From: an uncultured Thermoanaerobaculia bacterium
Lineage (GTDB): Bacteria; Acidobacteriota; Thermoanaerobaculia; Multivoradales; Multivoraceae
Reading direction: 5' to 3'
Assembly (NCBI GenBank): GCA_951813015.1
Contig: CATOTG010000002.1
Coordinates: 402,101 to 466,100 of the forward strand
Length of the DNA: 64,000 nucleotides
Below are positions 5,608-56,092 of the stretch, piece by piece (within the stretch, counting starts at the first letter, position 1; each line of letters begins with the position of its first letter). Below the pieces are notes generated by a model. The model saw only the letters and a list, made by a program, of their open reading frames with translations, ran no database searches and had not been told where the DNA came from. Both the position numbers and the translations under genes were made by a program.

Positions 5608-5684
5608 TGGTGCGCCTGGAGGGACTCGAACCCCCGACCTGTGGATTAGGAATCCACCGCTCTATCCCGCTGAGCTACAGGCGC
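5608..5684 (-). tRNA. tRNA-Arg (anticodon CCT)
   Basis: Reverse complement GCGCCTGTAGCTCAGCGGGATAGAGCGGTGGATTCCTAATCCACAGGTCGGGGGTTCGAGTCCCTCCAGGCGCACCA folds as a cloverleaf. It has a 7-bp acceptor stem, GCTC/GAGC D stem, GTGGA/TCCAC anticodon stem with loop TTCCTAA, a T-arm and an encoded CCA. Confidence 0.85.
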
Positions 5685-23181: not shown

Positions 23182-24666
<1,485 letters not shown>

Positions 24667-24684
24667 TGTGTGAACTCAAGAACG

Positions 24685-26046
24685 ATGCCCAACGAGAGCC
24701 ATCACAGCACAACGCGGAGGCCTGGTCCTCGCCAGCCGCCAGCAGTCAAGCGAAAGGATGATCGCCTGGTCTTCACGAAGAGCGTCAATCCTTACGCGCA
24801 CCGTCAGTTCATGTGGTGTCTGAGCGACTGCCTGGAGCGAGGGTATCAAGACATCATGCTCGATTTTTCGCTTTGTCAACGCGCGTTTCCGAACGGTGTT
24901 CTGCCAGTAATAGCTGGCGTTGACGCGCTCCGTCGAGACGGAATCGCCGTGTACGTCATCTTGCCGGCAAACGAGGATCTCCATCGCCTCTTCGTCAACA
25001 CGAACTGGGCCCACCTACTTGAACCCGAAAGCTACTCTGAGAGCAGCACGGTTCATCCACGTCACGTGCCGGCACGCCGTTTTCGGGACGCTGAACAGCA
25101 GCACACACTGGTGGGAGAGGCCTTGGAAGTCCTCTTGGGCGGAATTACTTCTCTACAGAGGGACGACCTCGGTGCCCTGGAGTGGTCCATGAACGAGATC
25201 ACGGACAACGTACTCACTCACGCCGACTGCGACCTGGGCGGGATCCTGCAGGTCAGCACTTTCGAGAATGCCGGCAAGGTGGCCGTGGGCGTTACGGACT
25301 CAGGCCGCGGCATCCTCGAATCCCTCCGGGAGAGCCACCGGGAACTGACGGACGACGCCGACGCGATCTACAAGGCTCTCGAAGCGGGCGTTACCCGGCA
25401 TTCTGATATCGGCCAAGGCAATGGTATGGCCGGCGCGCTCCGAATTGCCATGATGTCGGGCGGCTCAATCGAAATCACGTCTGGTCGAGCCCAAGTCCTG
25501 TACCGGGACGGCCAGTCGACTCCCTTCAGGCGCAGCCCGCGGCAAACTTTCCACGGCACCTTCGTCTACTTCGACATCGATCTGGACACCCGCTTCGATC
25601 TCTCCGAGGCCCTCGACTTTGGAGGCGGACCTCACCGCCCAGTAGACGTAGTGGAGGCACTCTACGAAACAGACGATGGACGAGCCCTCAACCTTCGCCT
25701 CCGCGACGAGGAGGTGGGATTCGGGTCCCGAATGGCCGGAAGACAGATACGTACCAAGGCTCTGAACCTGCTGAACGCAGAGCCGGAGAAGCCTCTTCTC
25801 CTGGACTGGGCCGGCGTGCCCTTGATCTCAAGCAGTTTCGCCGACGAACTTGTCGGCAAACTGTTCGCAACACTCGGCCCACTTACGTTCAGTCTTCGAG
25901 TGCGGAACACCGGAATGCGTCCCGTCGTCCACGGGTTGATCGACAAGGCCATTATGCAACGCGCGGGCCAGACGCTCGCCCGAGCCCGAGAAAATTCCGA
26001 ACTTGTTCCTGGCCACGTTAACGCCACTGAAGACCCTCAAAGCTAA
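24685..26046 (+). CDS. STAS-like / GHKL (HATPase_c) ATPase / DUF4325 STAS-like fusion protein (hypothetical, compositionally foreign)
   Basis: G1 box VTDSGRGI and G2 box GQGNGMAG...ITSG of a histidine-kinase-like ATPase. An N-terminal alpha/beta module (DIMLDFS...VLPVIAGV) and a C-terminal LLLDWAGVPLISSSFADELVG match the DUF4325/STAS pattern. Codon usage and GC are clearly lower than in neighbouring genes. Confidence 0.7.
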   Translation: MPNESHHSTTRRPGPRQPPAVKRKDDRLVFTKSVNPYAHRQFMWCLSDCLERGYQDIMLDFSLCQRAFPNGVLPVIAGVDALRRDGIAVYVILPANEDLHRLFVNTNWAHLLEPESYSESSTVHPRHVPARRFRDAEQQHTLVGEALEVLLGGITSLQRDDLGALEWSMNEITDNVLTHADCDLGGILQVSTFENAGKVAVGVTDSGRGILESLRESHRELTDDADAIYKALEAGVTRHSDIGQGNGMAGALRIAMMSGGSIEITSGRAQVLYRDGQSTPFRRSPRQTFHGTFVYFDIDLDTRFDLSEALDFGGGPHRPVDVVEALYETDDGRALNLRLRDEEVGFGSRMAGRQIRTKALNLLNAEPEKPLLLDWAGVPLISSSFADELVGKLFATLGPLTFSLRVRNTGMRPVVHGLIDKAIMQRAGQTLARARENSELVPGHVNATEDPQS

Positions 26047-26274
26047 GCACGGCGACCCCAGGCGTACGCGGCGACCAGGGTGACGAACTCCCTCCTGACG
26101 GAGGAGTGAGGTTGGGATCGATCGCCTTCGATCCAGTCGCTGTCCGTCTGGCGCCGATACCCGGACCAGTCCCCGCCGACATCGATCTTCAGTGCGTTCC
26201 TGATCGCCTGGGCGTAGAGGATCCCGTCGAACCTCGGATTCGACGAACGTTCCGTCGACGTCGAAGACGACCAT
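26043..26274 (-). pseudogene. short remnant with HAD-hydrolase motif I (MVVFDVDGTFVESE), frameshifted, about 77 codons
   Basis: ATG at 26272-26274 is preceded by a GGAGG-containing repeat. DVDGT motif I of the HAD superfamily, then a frame change and a stop at 26043-26045 overlapping the converging stop of the GHKL gene. Too short for a functional HAD enzyme. Confidence 0.4.
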
Positions 26275-26355
26275 GCGGCTTCAACCGCCCCCGTGCTTGG
26301 CCAGCTCACGACCGAGAGGATGAAGCCCGAGGCGCCATCGAAGGTGCACGCGGCT

Positions 26356-27363
26356 TCAACCGCCTCCGAGCCTGGCCAGCCATGCCTCCACCGCCACTCT
26401 GGCCGGGGCCTCCAGCCAGGGCAGCACGCCAAGGTTGCCTTCCCGGGCGGCGGCATCGATGTCGACCTCGTTGCGGTCGAGGAAACGGGCGGCGCGGTAG
26501 TAGGCGTCGCCGTGGGTGGCGGCGGCATCGCCGAGTTCGATCAGGTGGCCGGCGAGTTCGCGGGAGCGCCGCAGCCTGGATGGCAGCGGCAGGGCCGGCA
26601 GGGGCCTGGGCAGGCGATGCTCGACGCCGGCTGCCTCGGCAGCACAGCGGAAGGCCGAGTGGTCCGGGCGCGAGTCGTCGCCGTGAAACAGCGCGTCGAA
26701 GGCCTCGGGCCAGGAGGAGTGCAGCCGTTCAAAGAGCAGCCGGCGTTCCCGGGCATCGAGCTGCAACGCGCGGGGGACGACGCGGCGGGCCCCGGCGGCA
26801 GCGAGTCGGGCCATTGCCGGCGCCAGCAAGCCCGGCTCGTCGGTCCAGTCGGCAACGAGCGGCCAGACCAGGGTTGCGCCCGCCAGCGGACCCGGTTCGA
26901 ACGGAAGGCCGGGCTGGCGGCGCTCCCTGAGTTCTTCTCGCAGCGCGGCAGCGTGGCGGACCAGCGCGTCGAGCAGGTCGACCGCGATGACGATGTTGGC
27001 GGGCAGGTCGGCCAGCCCTGGCGCGGCCAGCTCGCGCAGACTCGACCCGCCGACGGCGATGCGCCCGATTACCTGAATCAGGAGAGGCACTCCCGCCGCC
27101 GCCGCGGCCTCGACGATGCGCAAGCGGAGGTGCGCGTCGTCCTCCGGCAGCGGCGGTACGTATACGACGTCGGTTGCCGGGAGCACCCCTTCGGCGGCAT
27201 CGGAGGCGGCCGGCAACGGTCCCGAGGTCGACGGCGGCAAGCCGCCAGTGGCAAGGTCGCACCAGAGATCGTCGCTGTTGCTGACCGGCCACCGCGAGAA
27301 GCTGTGACGGATCCAGAGGTTCGCCGGTTCGGCGACGTGCTCCCGGAACGTGAGTGGAGTCAC
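26356..27363 (-). CDS. hypothetical protein (335 aa, no recognisable domain)
   Basis: Long ORF with native high-GC codon usage. GTG start sits inside a direct repeat. No motif recognised by eye. Confidence 0.55.
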   Translation of the reverse strand: MTPLTFREHVAEPANLWIRHSFSRWPVSNSDDLWCDLATGGLPPSTSGPLPAASDAAEGVLPATDVVYVPPLPEDDAHLRLRIVEAAAAAGVPLLIQVIGRIAVGGSSLRELAAPGLADLPANIVIAVDLLDALVRHAAALREELRERRQPGLPFEPGPLAGATLVWPLVADWTDEPGLLAPAMARLAAAGARRVVPRALQLDARERRLLFERLHSSWPEAFDALFHGDDSRPDHSAFRCAAEAAGVEHRLPRPLPALPLPSRLRRSRELAGHLIELGDAAATHGDAYYRAARFLDRNEVDIDAAAREGNLGVLPWLEAPARVAVEAWLARLGGG

Positions 27364-50136: not shown

Positions 50137-52661
50137 TCTTGGAGGAGGAGGAGTTCACGATGTCACGATCAAGAGCCCGGTACGCCCCGGAGTACCGGCA
50201 GCAGATGGTAGATCTGGTCCGGTCCGGGCGTAGCCCGGACCAACTGGCTCGCGAGTTCGAGCCGTCAGCGCAGTCGATCCGGAACTGGGTGGCCCAGGCG
50301 GACCGGGACGAGGGCCGCCGGAGCGACGGCAGCACGACGGCGGAGCGCGAGGAGTTGCGGCGGCTGCGCCGGGAGAACCGCCGGTTGCGGGAAGAGCGGG
50401 CAATCCTGGCAAAAGCAACGGCCTGGTTCGCTCGGGAGACGGGACCGAAGGGGTCTTCCGGTTCATGAGAGCGCACCAGGCCGAGTTCCACGTCACGACG
50501 ATGGCCCGCGTGCTCGGCGTCTCCACGAGCGGGTACTACGCCTGGCTTGGGCGGCCACGCTCGGCCAGGGAAAAGTCGAACCGTCTTCTCGCCGCGCGTG
50601 TGCGGGCGATCCACGAGCGAAGCCGCGGGACCTATGGCGCGCCGCGGATTCAGGCCGAGCTGGCCGACGAGGGAGTTTCTGTGAGCCGCAAACGGATCGC
50701 AAGGCTGATGCAAGAGTCCGGCTTGGCCGGCGTAAGCCGGCGCAAGAAGCCGGGGACGACCCGCCGCGATCGGAAGGCTCGACCGGCGCCGGACCTCGTG
50801 GACCGGGAGTTCACGGCCGAGGCTCCTGACCGCCTGTGGGTCGCGGACATCACCTATGTGCCAACGCTGGCCGGGTTCCTGTATCTGGCCGTCGTGCTGG
50901 ACGTCTTCAGCCGCCGGATCGTCGGCTGGGCGATGGCCTCCAGCCTTCAGACGGACCTCGTGATCGATGCTCTGAACATGGCCGTCGCCCAGCGCCGACC
51001 CGGTGAAAGTGTGATTCATCACTCGGATCAAGGCAGCCAGTACACTTCGCTGAAGTGGCTCTTCAGGGTTTCGTGTGGAACGTGAGTGAATCGGGGTAGA
51101 GGTCGAGTCCTCCGAGATGGAAGTAGATGGCGGTGCGGAAGCGGTCTCGGTTCCGGTAGCCGCGGGCGGACTTCTTGAGCCACTGAATGACGGAGTTGAT
51201 GCCCTCGAGGCGAGCGTTCGTGACGCCACGCTCGATGGCGTTCAGCACGCCGTCGAGATGGGCCTTGATCATTCGCGCGACCTGCTTCATCGGTTCCAGC
51301 CGGCTGCGGATTGCCCACGAGTACCAGCCCTGCAACACAGCCAGCGCCTCGGCGCGGTCCCGGGTCTCCCACATCATCATCGCCACCTCCTTCAAGTGCC
51401 AGCAGCGGGCTGTCTTCGTCGTGCCGTCGATCAACTCCTTGAAGCGAGGCCATCGGTGCGCCGGCACCCGATCCGGGTGGTACAGCCACAGGTAGCGCGT
51501 GTCGGTCAGGCCGTCGTCGCCCAAGCGAAGCAACTGCCGGTGCTCCTCACTGCGCACCGCGTTCACGGCGTCGCCGAGATGAGCCGCGACGTGGAACTTG
51601 TCGTACGCGATCTTGGCCCCGCCGTCCGGCAGACACGACACCGTCGCCGAGATGTACGCCGGCCACATGTCCATCGCCACCGTCTCGATCCTGGAACGCT
51701 CGGCATCCGACAACGACTCGTAGTACGAAGACAGAGCGTCCTTGCCGCGGCCGTCCGCCACGTGATGCACCCGCGGCTCGCCCTCGAGGTCGGCCACCAC
51801 CGTCACGTACTCGTGGCGCTTCTGAAACGACGTCTCGTCCACGCCCAGGACTCTCGATGCCGGCGCCGAGCCACGCCGCTTCAAGCCGCGCTTCACCGCA
51901 CGCTCCTGTACCCCGGACACCTGGTCCCAGCTCAGCTCCAGAAGCCGGGCCACCGCCGAAACGCTCGCCTCGCCCAGCCAGTCGATGACCAAGGCCTCGA
52001 ACAACGCCGTCAAACGCGAGCCCGCGTCCGACCAAGGCACGCCAATCGTCCGCACACCGTGCTCCGAGCACCGCACCCGAGGCACGTCGGCGGTCAGGAT
52101 CGTACGGTACTGGCAGGTCGGCAGATGCCGCCAGCGCCGACGACGCGAGTCGTGGCGGCTCGCCGCCGAGCCGCACTCGGGACAACGGTACGACTCGCCA
52201 CCGCCCCGAGCCACGAACACCTCCACCTCACCGGCCTCAAGCCGAAGCTCAACGCCCGTCACCTCCCACGGACTCTCGATGCCCAGAATCCGACCGTACA
52301 AGTCTGTGTCACGCATCGCGCCAGACTACGGCATCTCCACCATCAACCCTGAAGAGCCGCTGAAGTTCGGGAAACGTTGCCGCGAAGCCGGCATCGTGCT
52401 CTCGATGGGCTCCGTGGGAGACTGCTTCGACAACGCCATGGCCGAGAGCTTCTTCGCCAGCCTCGAATGCGAACTGCTTGACCGCACCGTCTTCAGCAAC
52501 CACGCGGAAGCCAGAGGCGAGATCTTCCGCTACATCGAGGGCTGGTACAACACGCGCCGGAGACACTCGTCCATCGGACACCAGTCCCCCGTCAACTTCG
52601 AAAAGGCGTACCAGGAAGCCGCCTGAATACCCAAACACTAACCGTCCACGAAACCGGGGCA
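50112..52661 (+). mobile_element. IS3-family insertion sequence (orfA 50160..50468; orfB 50465..51057 plus 52359..52626) interrupted by an ISL3 element
   Basis: Imperfect terminal IRs TGACCCGGTTCCGTGGAC / GTCCACGAAACCGGGGCA. OrfA has an HTH and leucine zipper (RRLRRENRRLREERAILAKA). OrfB has an rve core (LWVADITYVPT, HHSDQGSQYTS, ...GDCFDNAMAESFF) split exactly at the ISL3 target. Confidence 0.85.
51058..52358 (-). mobile_element. ISL3-family insertion sequence (transposase 51063..52316) nested in IS3 orfB
   Basis: 417-aa ISL3-type transposase. Terminal IRs GGCTCTTCAGGGTT / AACCCTGAAGAGCC. Perfect 8-bp target-site duplication GCTGAAGT at 51050-51057 and 52359-52366. Confidence 0.85.
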
Positions 52662-53799: not shown

Positions 53800-56092
53800 G
53801 AAGAGCAGTTGTCTTTCTCGCTCTCGTCACCGGTATTGCCCCTACAGCAGAAGCCCAGGAAGCCCCTGTCGATTGTACGCCGGGATCCATGTCCGCCGAG
53901 TACGGTGGCGCTCTCTCCCGCAATGGCATCTCTCTGATCAGCCCGTCAGGCGATCACTTCGTCAGTGACTCCGTGCGCAACGGCGCGATCGGCAAGTGGA
54001 CGGGGGAGAACGGCTGTGCAGAGAATCAACGGCCTCCGCTGTTCACCAGAGCCGTCAGTAACACGGAAACGTGGAAGGTCAGGCAAGGGCGATACACGGA
54101 TTTTCCAGACGTAGTCACGAATGTCGAGCGCTACAGAACCAGAACGTCTGCGGCGTAGCGCCACTGGGTACCAGCCGGACCATCTACATCTTCGACGAGA
54201 CGGGCTGCAAGAAAGAGTGGCGCAAGATCGAGATCCTGGCCCATGAACTGGGTCACGCAATGAGACTCGGTCATGCAGATCAGGATCGACAATGCAGTGA
54301 CCGGCTGATGTATCACACACGGAGTCTGAAGGATTCAACCACGGACAAGAGGAACCCCCACGTGGACGACTGCGAGGCGCTCAAGCGGGAGAAGGACCGT
54401 GACTCGGGTGACGACGACGACGACGACGACGACGACGGTGGCGGTGGCGGTGGCGGTGGCGGCGGTGGCCCCGACCGTGGCGAAGGGGTCGATTGCGCTG
54501 CAGATCCCTGGCGCCCGGAGTGCCGCCAGACATTGGTGGTTTGCCGCACTAAATGTACTGAGGTAGAAGGTGGCTCGGTTTGCAATGTCGTATGTACCGA
54601 ATACGCGTTCTCTCCGGGCACCAGCGGCGGTGGATCGACGACGCAAACCGGCGTAGGCAGGCGGAACTACACGATCAAGCTGTCTGCCGAAGCTTCGGTC
54701 AGTGTGTCGTTGACGGGCATGGACCGGGACGTCGACTGTCGGGTTGGGAGTTCACGCTGCACGAACCGGTGGGGCACGCTGGACGATTCGTGGAGCGGCA
54801 CCCTGGCAGCGGGCGAGCACACGGTGACGGTCTACCCTTACCAGGGCGGGACCGGCAGCTACACGCTGACAGTGACCGCGACCAGTACGGCGACGCCACC
54901 ACCGCCACCGCCGCCGCCGCTGGCAGTGCCGGCCGTTTCTGATTCCCGGTCTCCGTCAGGCGGCTCCTTCGACACGGTGCTCCCTGCTGCAACCGGAGGC
55001 GCCGCACCTTACGCATACAGCGTGTCGGGGCTGCCGGCGGGGATCACGTTCGTTGCGTCGACGCGGCGTGCTAGCGGGACGCTTCCGACCGTCACGACCG
55101 ATACGGACTACACGATCACGTACACCGCTACGGACAGTGCAAGCGCCTCTTCGTCCGTGACCTTCGTTGCTACCGTCGTTGCGCCGTCGGCGCCGTCGGC
55201 GCCGGCGTTGAACGGCTCGGTGTCGGGGCGGACGCAGACCCTGACCTGGACGGCGCCTGCCGGCGGCGGGATCACGCGCTACCAGTTGCAGACCAGAGCA
55301 TCGGCGGCCCACCCATGGCATTTTACGGGCGCAGGAACGCCGTCGCCGTCGTCCAACATCGGTTCGAGCGTGAGGTCATGGAGCGTGGTCACCCCCTGGA
55401 CCCTGGTTCGTCACTATCGGGTGCGGGCGACGAATGCGGTCGGAGACGGCGTTTGGTCCAATGTCGTCGAACTGACAACTCCGCCGGCGCCGCCGCCGCC
55501 GTTGTCAGTGCCGGGAATCCCCAACTTCCGGTTGCCGTCAGGCGGCTCCGTGAACACGGTGTTCCCGGCGGCAACCGGAGGGACGGTGCCTTACGCGTAC
55601 AGCATGTCGGGACTGCCGCCGGGGATTACGTTCGTCGCGTCGACGCGGCGTGCTAGCGGGACGCTTCCGACCGTCACGACCGAGACGGACTACACAATCA
55701 CGTACACCGCCACGGACAGCGCGAGCGCGTCTGCCAGCGTGACGTTCGTCGCAACGGTGAGAGCGCCTCCGCCCCCTCCGCCCCTTTTGCCACCGCCGTC
55801 AGCACCGCAGCTCAGCGGGTCGGTTCTGCGGCAGACTCAGTCCCTGTCCTGGACCGCTCCAGCTTCAACGAGCGCGATCACGCGCTATCAGATGCAGACG
55901 AGGAATTCGGCTGCTCACTCTTGGCGGTACACGACGGCGGGTTCGCCCTCGCCGTCGTCGAACTTCAGTTCGAGCGCCAGGTCATGGAGCGTGACCACGC
56001 CTTCGGGTCTTGTCCGCCATTATCGGGTCCGGGCGGCGAGTGCGAACGGGGACGGTGCGTGGTCCAACGTGGTCGAGTTGACCTCGAACTGA
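53796..56092 (+). pseudogene. secreted metzincin-type zinc metalloprotease with poly-Asp/poly-Gly linker and 2x(Ig-like + fibronectin-III-like) repeats; apparent frameshift near 54130-54160
   Basis: Signal peptide MRRAVVFLALVTGIAPTAEA. HELGHAMRLGHAD (HExxHxxGxxH). The D9-G11 linker is encoded by (GAC)9(GGY)11. Two about 190-aa repeats (...VSGLPAGITFVASTRRASGTLPTVTTDTDYTITYTATDSASAS... / ...ITRYQLQTR...WSNVVELT). The N-terminal segment ends at a stop at 54156-54158 while the downstream reading frame is open from 54071. Confidence 0.6.

What the first reader, a model, noticed from the sequence alone, without database searches (positions are those of the whole stretch)
24670..26046. Compositionally foreign single-gene module: STAS-like / GHKL ATPase / DUF4325-STAS fusion inserted directly after lysS
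Seen in sequence. The gene starts 19 nt after the lysS stop. Its stop overlaps (convergently) the stop of a roughly 77-codon HAD-motif remnant. Its base composition is clearly AT-richer than everything around it (by eye mid-50s % versus about 70 %), and its codon usage is not third-position-GC dominated. It carries the G1 (VTDSGRGI) and G2 (GQGNGMAG...ITSG) ATP-lid boxes of a Bergerat-fold kinase/ATPase. On the N-terminal side is an alpha/beta module (…DIMLDFS…VLPVIAGV…) and on the C-terminal side is a LLLDWAGVPLISSSFADELVG module, the DUF4325/STAS pattern. Established knowledge: RsbW/SpoIIAB-type GHKL kinases act on separate STAS antagonists in partner-switching cascades. Inference: here kinase and putative substrate domains are fused in one horizontally acquired polypeptide. 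There is no sigma factor, PP2C phosphatase or response regulator nearby. This makes it the best candidate in the window for an uncharacterised stand-alone sensor/switch (possibly stress- or phage-responsive). The truncated HAD remnant next door suggests the insertion destroyed a resident gene.
Basis: partly seen in the sequence, partly recalled or inferred. Interest (0 to 1): 0.6.

Follow-up and report, generated by a model that had tools for sequence, protein, structure and literature searches.

The report
Fused kinase–substrate switch in defence hotspot
A foreign-looking gene inserted just after lysS encodes, in one protein, a serine kinase and its likely target domain, resembling the recently described DNA-damage-sensing CapK/CapS and VapK/VapS immune switches, and it sits at a site where related bacteria keep other anti-phage genes.

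Summary
Window 24670/24685–26046(+) encodes a 458/453-aa protein with a canonical STAS domain, an RsbW/SpoIIAB-type GHKL serine-kinase domain and a DUF4325 STAS-like domain. GC3 is 0.68 against 0.84–0.91 in neighbours. A relative (L091) has the unoccupied site, lysS then an intact 239-aa HAD gene, and the window keeps only frameshifted HAD residues 3–86. So the insertion did truncate a resident gene.

It is not a recent private insertion. Five related Thermoanaerobaculia genomes carry the gene after lysS, with a gene tree that disagrees with the flanks. Other relatives carry HEC-04-like, PDC-M02B-like or methyltransferase cargo there, so the site is a defence hotspot.

The closest characterised systems are VapK/VapS/VapC and CapK/CapS (EMBO J 2026). 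VapS is a clear Pfam DUF4325 member. The proven phospho-serines of VapS and CapS align inside the family's near-invariant SSS motif (S388/S389), and all kinase catalytic residues are invariant.

Best reading: a single-chain, solitary VapK–VapS-like phospho-switch whose signal and output are unknown. It has no toxin, HTH domain or conserved partner. The family is large (at least 640 clusters at 50% identity), sporadic across phyla, and unnamed. It is a new variant of a known kind, of moderate interest.

The parts
23182..24666 (+). lysS (class II lysyl-tRNA synthetase), the core gene that forms the left border of the hotspot
   Evidence: Pfam tRNA-synt_2 E=2.6e-90. DNA identity to L091 ends exactly at the stop codon at 24666.
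24667..26069 (.). Inserted segment (about 1.4 kb, single gene) with no counterpart at the unoccupied site of L091. It replaced about 412 bp of the HAD 3' part.
   Evidence: blastn breakpoints: window 24300-24666 = L091 8122-8488, and window 26070-26273 = L091 8901-9133. GC 0.57-0.63.
24685..26046 (+). CDS of the STAS-GHKL-DUF4325 protein (453 aa from the ATG; the mechanical ORF starts at GTG 24670, 458 aa; residue numbers below use the 458-aa frame)
   Evidence: P0001, 453 aa, 96% identical. dN/dS 0.09-0.26 against orthologues.
24742..25029 (+). N-terminal canonical STAS domain (aa 25-120). It has no conserved Ser at the helix-alpha2 N-terminus (A-F/Y-P-N-G instead). Conserved P99, F108, N112-W113-A114-H115.
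25063..25581 (+). GHKL (Bergerat-fold) kinase domain, aa 132-304, of RsbW/SpoIIAB/VapK type
25195..25221 (+). N-box E176-x3-N180-x3-H184 (NEITDNVLTH)
   Evidence: E176, N180 and H184 are invariant in 128/128 diverse representatives. It aligns to CapK N218, whose N218A mutation abolishes kinase function.
25297..25311 (+). G1 box D210-S-G212-R-G214
   Evidence: D210 and G212 128/128, G214 121/128.
25414..25425 (+). G2 box Q249-G250-N251-G252 (ATP lid)
   Evidence: G250 and G252 128/128. The lid region aa 241-250 is the only low-pLDDT internal segment.
25582..25686 (+). Conserved structured linker (aa 305-339; L315, D326, E329, Y332 conserved)
25687..25917 (+). C-terminal DUF4325 STAS-like domain (aa 340-416), the putative phospho-acceptor
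   Evidence: Pfam PF14213 27.3-29.8 bits against cutoff 23. VapS is PF14213 at 62.7 bits. VapS and CapS align in register.
25828..25836 (+). S387-S388-S389, the predicted phosphorylation site at the start of helix alpha2, followed by F390-x-D392-E393
   Evidence: S388 123/128, S389 126/128, D392 and E393 127/128. VapS S48 aligns to S388 and CapS S54 to S389 (and the paper).
25918..26001 (+). Conserved C-terminal helix (aa 417-444; L423, A427, R431 near-invariant). It occupies the position of the VapS C-terminal inhibitory helix.
   Evidence: The VapS analogy comes and is an inference.
26052..26274 (-). Remnant of the resident HAD-family hydrolase gene (residues 3-86 of 239; one frameshift, a 9-aa deletion, 3' two-thirds missing)
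   Evidence: tblastn against the intact L091 HAD, E=4e-17. L091 gene table.
26272..26380 (.). Decayed 75-bp tandem duplication of the p335-stop / HAD-start junction (34-nt copies, 88% identical)
   Evidence: the repeat finder family D1. Sequence read.
26356..27363 (-). p335, a conserved lineage-specific gene of unknown function that forms the right border of the hotspot, followed by ribE
   Evidence: Orthologues at 60-81% identity in the same position in L025, L010, L008, L091, L092 and L093. No Pfam hit.

Best explanation
The gene encodes a single-chain version of the VapK/VapS (CapK/CapS) kinase-substrate switch. The N-terminal STAS domain plus the RsbW/SpoIIAB-type GHKL domain form a signal-activated serine kinase. 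The C-terminal DUF4325 STAS-like domain carries the acceptor serine (S388/S389) at the start of its second helix. On activation the kinase phosphorylates its own C-terminal domain, either in cis or across a dimer. By analogy with CapK and VapK, the activating signal could be single-stranded DNA bound between the STAS and GHKL domains. Phosphorylation would change what the DUF4325 domain and the conserved C-terminal helix bind: a partner encoded elsewhere, or the protein's own oligomeric state.

The gene is accessory cargo of a variable, defence-type hotspot between lysS and p335/ribE in a Thermoanaerobaculia ('Ca. Multivorans'-like) lineage. Its arrival truncated a resident HAD hydrolase gene. 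It is probably transcribed by read-through from lysS.

Shown: the domain folds, the intact catalytic and acceptor motifs, homology to VapK/VapS, purifying selection, the hotspot and the HAD truncation. Inferred: kinase activity, self-phosphorylation, the nature of the signal, the output and a defence role.

For: Catalytic and acceptor residues: E176, N180, H184, D210, G212, G250 and G252 are 128/128, S388 is 123/128 and S389 is 126/128 in representatives clustered at 50% identity.

Link to characterised systems: VapS is DUF4325 at 62.7 bits, and VapK has the same sub-threshold HATPase_c signature as this protein. The family profile detects VapK (p=4.6e-11), CapK (1.3e-7) and VapS (1.3e-5), with the proven phospho-sites falling inside the SSS motif. 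The experimental mechanism is in PMC13373217.

Module behaviour: a split two-gene form exists. The same STAS-GHKL-DUF4325 module forms the first ~400 positions of a PADLOC DrmA model.

Stand-alone status: no conserved neighbour in 73 loci.

Accessory and hotspot status: the unoccupied site has an intact HAD. Alternative cargo at the same site includes HEC-04-like, PDC-M02B-like, PD-Lambda-5_B/MTase-like, MTase-HNH and Mrr genes. The gene tree is incongruent with the flanks. GC is below the flanks in 74/77 loci, p=7e-14.

Functional gene: dN/dS 0.09-0.26.
Against: No biochemical data exist for this family. Similarity to VapK/VapS and CapK/CapS is remote: 27.5, 16, 9.6 and 1.6 bits in a targeted comparison, and hhalign probability is 59% for CapK and under 1% for CapS.

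No effector, toxin, HTH domain or phosphatase is fused or conserved nearby, so the output step is unknown. The PIN genes near two loci are on the opposite strand.

I could not inspect model coordinates, so I have not shown that the SSS motif can reach the active site in cis. VapK's ssDNA-contacting F54 aligns to a variable position (R71). The family's conserved aromatic F/Y73 lies two residues away, so ssDNA sensing is conjecture.

Only about 10% of immediate neighbours family-wide are defence-like. The family is rare on plasmids and phages.
Confidence: 0.6

Rival explanations
1. It is an ordinary partner-switching regulator. On this view the protein is a fused anti-sigma-factor kinase plus antagonist (RsbW-RsbV or SpoIIAB-SpoIIAA type, as in M. 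tuberculosis Rv1364c) that controls an alternative sigma factor encoded elsewhere. It would be part of the host's general stress response, not a conflict system.
For: The top structural neighbours are anti-sigma-factor kinases and their antagonists, including the multidomain Rv1364c. The split plasmid version in Alicyclobacillus follows a sigma-factor-like HTH gene.
Against: The gene is absent from close relatives such as L090, L091, L092 and L093. Its distribution across phyla is sporadic and it is AT-richer than the host almost everywhere. It sits in a variable hotspot next to RM, IS and defence cargo. No sigma factor or PP2C phosphatase is found near it in the window or among the top families of 136 neighbours. 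Sequence-wise it matches VapK/VapS (DUF4325-type STAS), not Pfam STAS/STAS_2 families.
Confidence: 0.12
2. It is a non-kinase GHKL ATPase. On this view the Bergerat domain acts as an ATP-driven dimerisation clamp or ATPase, like MutL, MORC or Hsp90, as seen in RM-associated paraMORC proteins. The two STAS-like domains would be ligand- or nucleic-acid-binding modules, with no phosphotransfer.
For: Foldseek also finds GyrB, Hsp90 and MutL N-domains. The E-x3-N N-box with a conserved Glu is shared with hydrolytic GHKL ATPases. The module is fused to a DrmA-type helicase in one PADLOC model.
Confidence: 0.1
3. It is an orphaned or degenerate remnant of a multi-gene system, for example vapKSC that lost its VapC toxin, or a DISARM-like system that lost its helicase. 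On this view it has no current function of its own.
For: There is no effector gene in the window. The locus shows decay (HAD pseudogene, junction duplication). Related modules occur with PIN toxins or fused to DrmA.
Against: Purifying selection is strong (dN/dS 0.09-0.26). Catalytic and acceptor residues are invariant across at least 128 divergent full-length representatives. The solitary three-domain form is the dominant architecture: the best 150 representatives are nearly all about 405-450 aa. It has no conserved partner across 73 loci. A systematic solitary state argues that it is functional on its own.
Confidence: 0.08

Closest known systems
VapK / VapS of the VapKSC toxin-antitoxin anti-phage system (Chambers et al., EMBO J 2026, PMC13373217)
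   Same: VapK is STAS + GHKL without an HTH, the same order as the first two domains here, and the family profile detects it across the whole GHKL domain (27.5 bits). VapS is a Pfam DUF4325 STAS protein with a functional C-terminal helix. Its phospho-site S48 aligns to S388. 36% of vapKSC loci lie near other defence genes, and here the hotspot carries defence cargo.
   Different: Here the kinase and the STAS substrate are one polypeptide. There is no VapC/PIN toxin gene in the window and no operonic PIN in the family. Sequence similarity is remote. The aromatic residue used by VapK for ssDNA (F54) is not positionally conserved. Activity is untested.
CapK / CapS, a DNA-damage (ssDNA)-activated kinase and its STAS-wHTH repressor (same paper)
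   Same: CapK has a STAS-GHKL core with the same N-box and G1 motifs. The CapS motif 'GIVATDSSFPRESV' aligns in register with 'GVPLISSSFADELV', placing S54 on S389. The kinase phosphorylates a STAS serine at the start of helix alpha2.
   Different: This protein has no N-terminal HTH and no wHTH output domain, so it cannot act as a DNA-binding repressor in the CapS manner. It is not placed upstream of an immune operon. CapS itself does not reach the Pfam DUF4325 threshold.
RsbW-RsbV and SpoIIAB-SpoIIAA partner-switching modules, and the fused Rv1364c of M. tuberculosis
   Different: There is no sigma-factor target, no PP2C phosphatase and no PAS or other known input domain. There are two STAS-type domains flanking the kinase. 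The gene is accessory and horizontally mobile rather than part of a core regulon.
PADLOC 'DrmA' model PDLC02567 (DISARM-type helicase variant)
   Same: Its first ~400 profile positions are a STAS-GHKL-DUF4325 module collinear with this protein (E=3e-36). CapK, VapK and both halves of the split pair map onto it in order.
   Different: The remaining ~1350 positions (helicase and the rest) have no counterpart here. No other DISARM genes are in the window.
Pfam PF14213 (DUF4325) proteins, named 'DUF4325 domain-containing protein' or 'STAS-like domain-containing protein' in RefSeq
   Same: The C-terminal domain is a member, scoring above the gathering cutoff. RefSeq gives this name to full-length homologues.
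   Different: The name carries no function. The literature has only three incidental mentions of DUF4325.

Membership tests
GHKL / Bergerat-fold ATP-binding superfamily | N-box (E/N), G1 (DxGxG) and G2 (GxxGxG-like) motifs on a Bergerat alpha/beta sandwich | tested here: met
RsbW/SpoIIAB-type anti-sigma-factor serine kinases | Compact GHKL domain structurally closest to SpoIIAB/RsbW | tested here: met
RsbW/SpoIIAB-type anti-sigma-factor serine kinases | Binds and inhibits a cognate sigma factor; encoded with the sigma factor, antagonist and phosphatase | tested here: not met
   No sigma factor or PP2C gene in the window neighbourhood, nor among the top Pfam families of 136 neighbours. Binding itself cannot be tested here.
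STAS domain superfamily (N-terminal domain) | Four-stranded beta-sheet with beta-beta-alpha-beta-alpha-beta-alpha-alpha topology, superposable on SpoIIAA, RsbV and SLC26 STAS | tested here: met
Pfam PF14213 DUF4325 (VapS-type STAS-like domain) | Score above the Pfam gathering threshold of 23 bits | tested here: met
   27.3 bits for the whole protein and 29.8 bits for the isolated domain.
VapK/VapS- and CapK/CapS-type kinase-substrate switch | STAS domain immediately N-terminal to the GHKL kinase | tested here: met
VapK/VapS- and CapK/CapS-type kinase-substrate switch | Conserved Ser/Thr at the start of helix alpha2 of the substrate STAS domain | tested here: met
   S388 123/128 and S389 126/128. 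They align to VapS S48 and CapS S54.
VapK/VapS- and CapK/CapS-type kinase-substrate switch | Kinase and substrate are separate, adjacent gene products | tested here: not met
   They are fused in one ORF here and in the best 150 family representatives. A split form exists elsewhere.
   No HTH or PIN in the protein. No co-oriented PIN neighbour.
VapK/VapS- and CapK/CapS-type kinase-substrate switch | Kinase activated by ssDNA; phosphotransfer to the STAS serine | not testable with these tools
   This needs biochemistry. The VapK F54 position is variable here, and a conserved F/Y73 lies two residues away.
DISARM DrmA | Helicase and DUF1998-type core, with the other drm genes alongside | tested here: not met
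   Only positions 137-397 of the 1750-position model match. No helicase is in the ORF or in the neighbourhood.
HAD-superfamily hydrolase (for the remnant at 26052-26274) | Motifs I-IV on an intact Rossmannoid core | tested here: not met
   Only motif I (DVDGT) and residues up to about 86 of 239 survive, with a frameshift. No Pfam hit. It is a pseudogene fragment.

The most novel reading that the evidence does not exclude
The solitary STAS-GHKL-DUF4325 protein is a complete one-gene immune or stress module. On this reading, a nucleic-acid or damage signal sensed between the STAS and kinase domains triggers self-phosphorylation of the built-in VapS-like domain. That releases either the kinase, to phosphorylate phage or host targets, or the C-terminal helix, to act on an unlinked target. 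The protein would then be a portable sensor hub that works without a dedicated toxin or transcription-factor partner. The same cassette would serve as the input module of helicase-based systems such as the DrmA variant.
Probability: 0.15. Interest if true: 0.75.

Novelty: new variant of a known kind. Interest (0 to 1): 0.5.

Why it matters
CapK/CapS and VapK/VapS were described only in 2026, as two-protein switches that turn on immune operons or a toxin when DNA damage produces ssDNA. This window shows that the same kinase-substrate pair also exists as one fused, solitary polypeptide. That form is a large family (at least 640 clusters at 50% identity, at least 314 species across many phyla), is under purifying selection, and sits in defence hotspots.

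The finding gives Pfam DUF4325 a concrete, testable role as a phospho-acceptor STAS domain of VapS type. It also explains the N-terminal region of a PADLOC DrmA model. The open question it raises is what a kinase-substrate switch controls when no effector is attached. For genome annotation, it identifies the lysS-p335 junction as a cargo hotspot in marine Thermoanaerobaculia.

Tried and rejected
(1) NCBIfam gave no hit for the protein.

(2) A sequence search of PDB chains with the family profile found nothing better than E=0.1.

(3) I looked for a conserved partner gene by clustering all flanking ORFs of at least 90 aa from 73 loci. None recurred beyond the syntenic Acidobacteriota group. ORFs under 90 aa were not examined.

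(4) I considered an operonic VapC-like PIN partner. PIN neighbours in L068 and L081 are on the opposite strand, 0.7-0.9 kb away, so I rejected this.

(5) I looked for att-like direct repeats flanking the insert. None was convincing. The only notable repeat (D1) lies wholly on the right side and is a junction duplication.

(6) The promoter and terminator scan found nothing above chance.

(7) Pfam on the conceptual HAD remnant found nothing. The remnant was confirmed only by comparison with the intact L091 gene.

(8) hhalign of the family against single CapK and CapS sequences gave weak statistics: 59% probability, E=9e-5 for CapK, and under 1%, E=0.075 for CapS. HMMER profile scores and the shared Pfam membership of VapS were more informative.

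(11) Plasmid and phage collections gave only three weak hits each, so the family is not a typical plasmid or phage gene.

(12) A literature search for DrmA together with 'histidine kinase-like ATPase' found nothing.
Full report
**1. What is in the sequence**

The ORF 24670..26046(+) is present. It is 458 aa from the first GTG. A 96%-identical, 453-aa database homologue (P0001) supports the ATG at 24685, which lies 18 nt after the lysS stop at 24666.

Its composition is atypical:
- GC is 0.598 against 0.685 for the window.
- GC3 is 0.684 against 0.84–0.91 in eight neighbouring genes.
- The 25–26 kb bin is the lowest-GC kilobase of the window.
The qualitative claim is correct.

Pfam finds DUF4325 above its cutoff (27.3 bits whole protein, 29.8 bits isolated domain, cutoff 23). 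HATPase_c is just below its cutoff (22.8–25.1 against 26.4). NCBIfam finds nothing.

**2. Domain anatomy**

These rank ahead of histidine kinases, topoisomerases and MutL.

In 128 full-length representatives clustered at 50% identity:
- N-box E176, N180 and H184, G1 D210 and G212, and G2 G250 and G252 are 128/128.
- In the C-terminal domain S388 is 123/128, S389 is 126/128, and D392 and E393 are 127/128.
- The N-terminal STAS has A-(F/Y)-P-N-G at the equivalent spot, with no conserved serine.

**3. Relation to characterised systems**

The literature on DUF4325 is almost empty. A 2026 EMBO J paper (PMC13373217) describes two related systems:
- **CapK and CapS.** CapK is HTH-STAS-GHKL and CapS is STAS-wHTH.
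- **VapK, VapS and VapC.** VapK is STAS-GHKL, VapS is a STAS domain plus a C-terminal helix, and VapC is a PIN toxin.

In both, ssDNA bound between the STAS and GHKL domains activates the kinase. The kinase then phosphorylates a conserved serine on helix α2 of the partner STAS protein (CapS S54, VapS S48). This releases a repressor from DNA, or an antitoxin from its toxin.

I took the four sequences from the paper's supplements and compared them with this family:
- VapS is an unambiguous Pfam DUF4325 member (62.7 bits). VapK has the same sub-threshold HATPase_c signature as this protein.
- The family profile scores VapK at 27.5 bits (p=4.6e-11, whole GHKL domain), CapK at 16.2 bits, VapS at 9.6 bits (p=1.3e-5) and CapS at 1.6 bits.
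- VapS S48 aligns to S388 and CapS S54 aligns to S389.
- hhalign against the single sequences is weak but in the same register.
- The paper does not mention fused forms or DUF4325.

The protein is therefore best described as a VapK-like kinase fused to a VapS-like acceptor domain. It lacks the HTH domains of CapK/CapS and the PIN toxin of VapKSC.

**4. The module occurs in other arrangements**
- A split two-gene form, a 297-aa kinase followed by a 102-aa 'STAS-like' protein, occurs on an Alicyclobacillus plasmid.
- The only PADLOC hit is a 'DrmA' model (E=3e-36). Its first ~400 positions are the same STAS-GHKL-DUF4325 module: CapK, VapK and both halves of the split pair map onto it in order. 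In some DISARM-type proteins the module is therefore the N-terminal part of a helicase.

**5. Family size and distribution**
- An exhaustive profile search finds 640 cluster representatives at E≤1e-30 and 2064 at E≤1e-10. Most of the best 150 are full-length proteins of about 400–450 aa.
- A pattern-based scan of species-representative genomes finds 314 species in Acidobacteriota, Bacteroidota, Pseudomonadota, Nitrospirota, Actinomycetota, Bacillota and Planctomycetota.
- The gene is AT-richer than its flanks in 74 of 77 loci (median −0.075, p=7e-14).
- No neighbour is conserved across loci.
- Roughly 10% of immediate neighbours are defence-type (GajA, PtuA/AriA/Old ATPases, DpdF, PsyrT, HEC-04, mad3, PIN). 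The rest are housekeeping genes.
- PIN neighbours are not operonic.
- The family is rare on plasmids (3 hits), phage genomes (3 hits) and viral contigs (13 loci).

**6. The locus**

The window belongs to a Thermoanaerobaculia / 'Ca. Multivorans'-like lineage. The flanks ABC-FtsX-hpt-pnp-lysS and p335-ribE-ribD-ftsY are conserved.

| Locus | lysS identity to window | What lies between lysS and p335 |
|---|---|---|
| L091 | 82% | Intact 239-aa HAD hydrolase only (unoccupied site) |
| L025 (=L001) | 95% | MTase-HNH, IS1595, the GHKL gene, Mrr |
| L009 (=L003) | 89% | GHKL gene, then DUF222 and IS elements |
| L010 (=L004) | 91% | GHKL gene |
| L008 | 83% | GHKL gene |
| L012 | 81% | GHKL gene about 1.8 kb after lysS; the contig ends inside it, so p335 is not seen |
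| L092 | 80% | HEC-04-like AAA_21/AAA_15 ATPase (E=1.9e-35) |
| L093 | 79% | PD-Lambda-5_B / type II MTase-like gene (E=1e-41) |
| L090 | 90% | NTase_sub_bind pair, DUF6978, a PDC-M02B-like gene (E=1.9e-115), DUF499 |

In the window, identity to L091 stops exactly at the lysS stop (24666) and resumes at about 26070 inside HAD. Window 26274–26052(−) matches HAD residues 3–86 with one frameshift and a 9-residue deletion (E=4e-17).

The site is a defence-type cargo hotspot.

**7. Evolutionary history at the hotspot**

The concatenated flank tree has two clades, with L093 outside them:
- clade A: window, L025, L010, L009, L090
- clade B: L008, L091, L012, L092

The GHKL gene is present in members of both clades and absent from others. 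This includes L091, which has the intact HAD and is sister to GHKL-bearing L012.

The GHKL tree is incongruent with the flanks. The window copy is 79–80% identical to L008 and L012 but only 69–71% to L010 and L009, although its flanks are closer to L010 and L009.

dS of the gene is 2–6 times that of the adjacent lysS for the same genome pairs. One caveat is that strong GC3 bias lowers dS in lysS. dN/dS is 0.09–0.26.

The gene is functional and under purifying selection. It has been gained, lost or exchanged repeatedly, probably by recombination in the conserved flanks. It does not meet the second half of that criterion ('with typical codon usage'): all orthologues have depressed GC3 (0.73–0.78 against 0.79–0.93).

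**8. Expression signals**

No promoter-like or terminator-like sites exceed chance. The gene follows the lysS stop by 17–20 nt in four of the genomes (window, L009, L010, L008), with purine-rich spacers. Read-through transcription from lysS is therefore likely. This is an inference.

**9. Mechanism and confidence**

Shown:
- three folded domains
- an intact RsbW/VapK-type active site
- a near-invariant serine pair at the experimentally defined acceptor position of VapS and CapS
- purifying selection
- accessory, hotspot-borne status

Inferred:
- The kinase phosphorylates its own C-terminal domain, in cis or in trans.
- The STAS-GHKL unit senses a signal. ssDNA is the obvious candidate, but VapK F54 is not positionally conserved here.
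- Phosphorylation alters the interactions of the DUF4325 domain and the conserved C-terminal helix.

The output is unknown. There is no toxin, HTH domain, phosphatase or conserved partner.

I put 0.6 on the fused kinase-substrate switch reading. The rivals are an ordinary sigma-factor partner-switch (0.12), a non-kinase GHKL ATPase (0.10) and a functionless orphan (0.08).

**10. Verdict**

The feature is a new architectural variant, fused and solitary, of a kinase-STAS switch that has only recently been characterised. It lies in a lineage-specific defence hotspot. Interest is moderate (0.5). It assigns a testable role to DUF4325 and raises a clear question about the output. It is not a new kind of system, and no function has been demonstrated.

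Noticed in passing
window 26272-26305 and 26347-26380: A decayed 75-bp tandem duplication (34-nt copies, 88% identical) of the junction formed by the p335 stop codon and the HAD start codon. The motif 'GGCGGTTGAAGCCGC(G/A)TG' occurs twice. It may be a scar of recombination at the right border of the hotspot.
   Followed up: partly
window 51063-52316 (-), within a lower-GC stretch at 51-55 kb: An ISL3-family transposase (DDE_Tnp_ISL3 E=5.6e-67, plus Zn-ribbon and HTH domains) lies in a second region of reduced GC (0.63-0.65). A 673-aa He_PIG Ig-domain protein follows at 54071-56092. This may be another mobile or variable region.
   Followed up: partly
window 26356-27363 (-): p335 is a 335-aa protein conserved at the right border of the hotspot in all relatives examined. 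It has no Pfam or PADLOC hit, only a weak C-terminal similarity to the Rv2578c radical-SAM family (E=0.004, far below the cutoff). Its function is unknown.
   Followed up: no
window 5608-5684 (-): tRNA-Arg(CCT) is the only RNA gene detected in the 64-kb window by ARAGORN and Rfam.
   Followed up: yes
L089 (Alicyclobacillus acidocaldarius plasmid pAACI02) 79-1748: A split version of the module: a 297-aa GHKL kinase followed by a 102-aa DUF4325 protein, directly downstream of a 'sigma factor-like HTH DNA-binding protein' gene and next to IS66 and IS1634 elements. It hints that some family members do connect to a transcription factor.
   Followed up: partly
L090 10347-15491 (relative with lysS 90% identical): The same lysS-downstream site holds a larger island: two NTase_sub_bind proteins, DUF6978, a PDC-M02B-like protein (E=1.9e-115) and a DUF499 protein of more than 1000 aa. 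This is a candidate multi-gene defence system in place of the GHKL gene.
   Followed up: partly
L011 and L028 (Ca. Multivorans / Thermoanaerobaculia, GHKL 70% identical): Two further relatives carry a copy of the gene at a different chromosomal location, with no lysS in the 20-kb locus and large ORFs (about 650-1260 aa) on either side. The gene is therefore not tied to the lysS site.
   Followed up: no
L098-L106 (IMG/VR contigs, mostly from sample 3300045988): Nine nearly identical viral contigs of 64-135 kb carry a 29%-identical full-length family member. This suggests that at least one phage or prophage group encodes the module.
   Followed up: no
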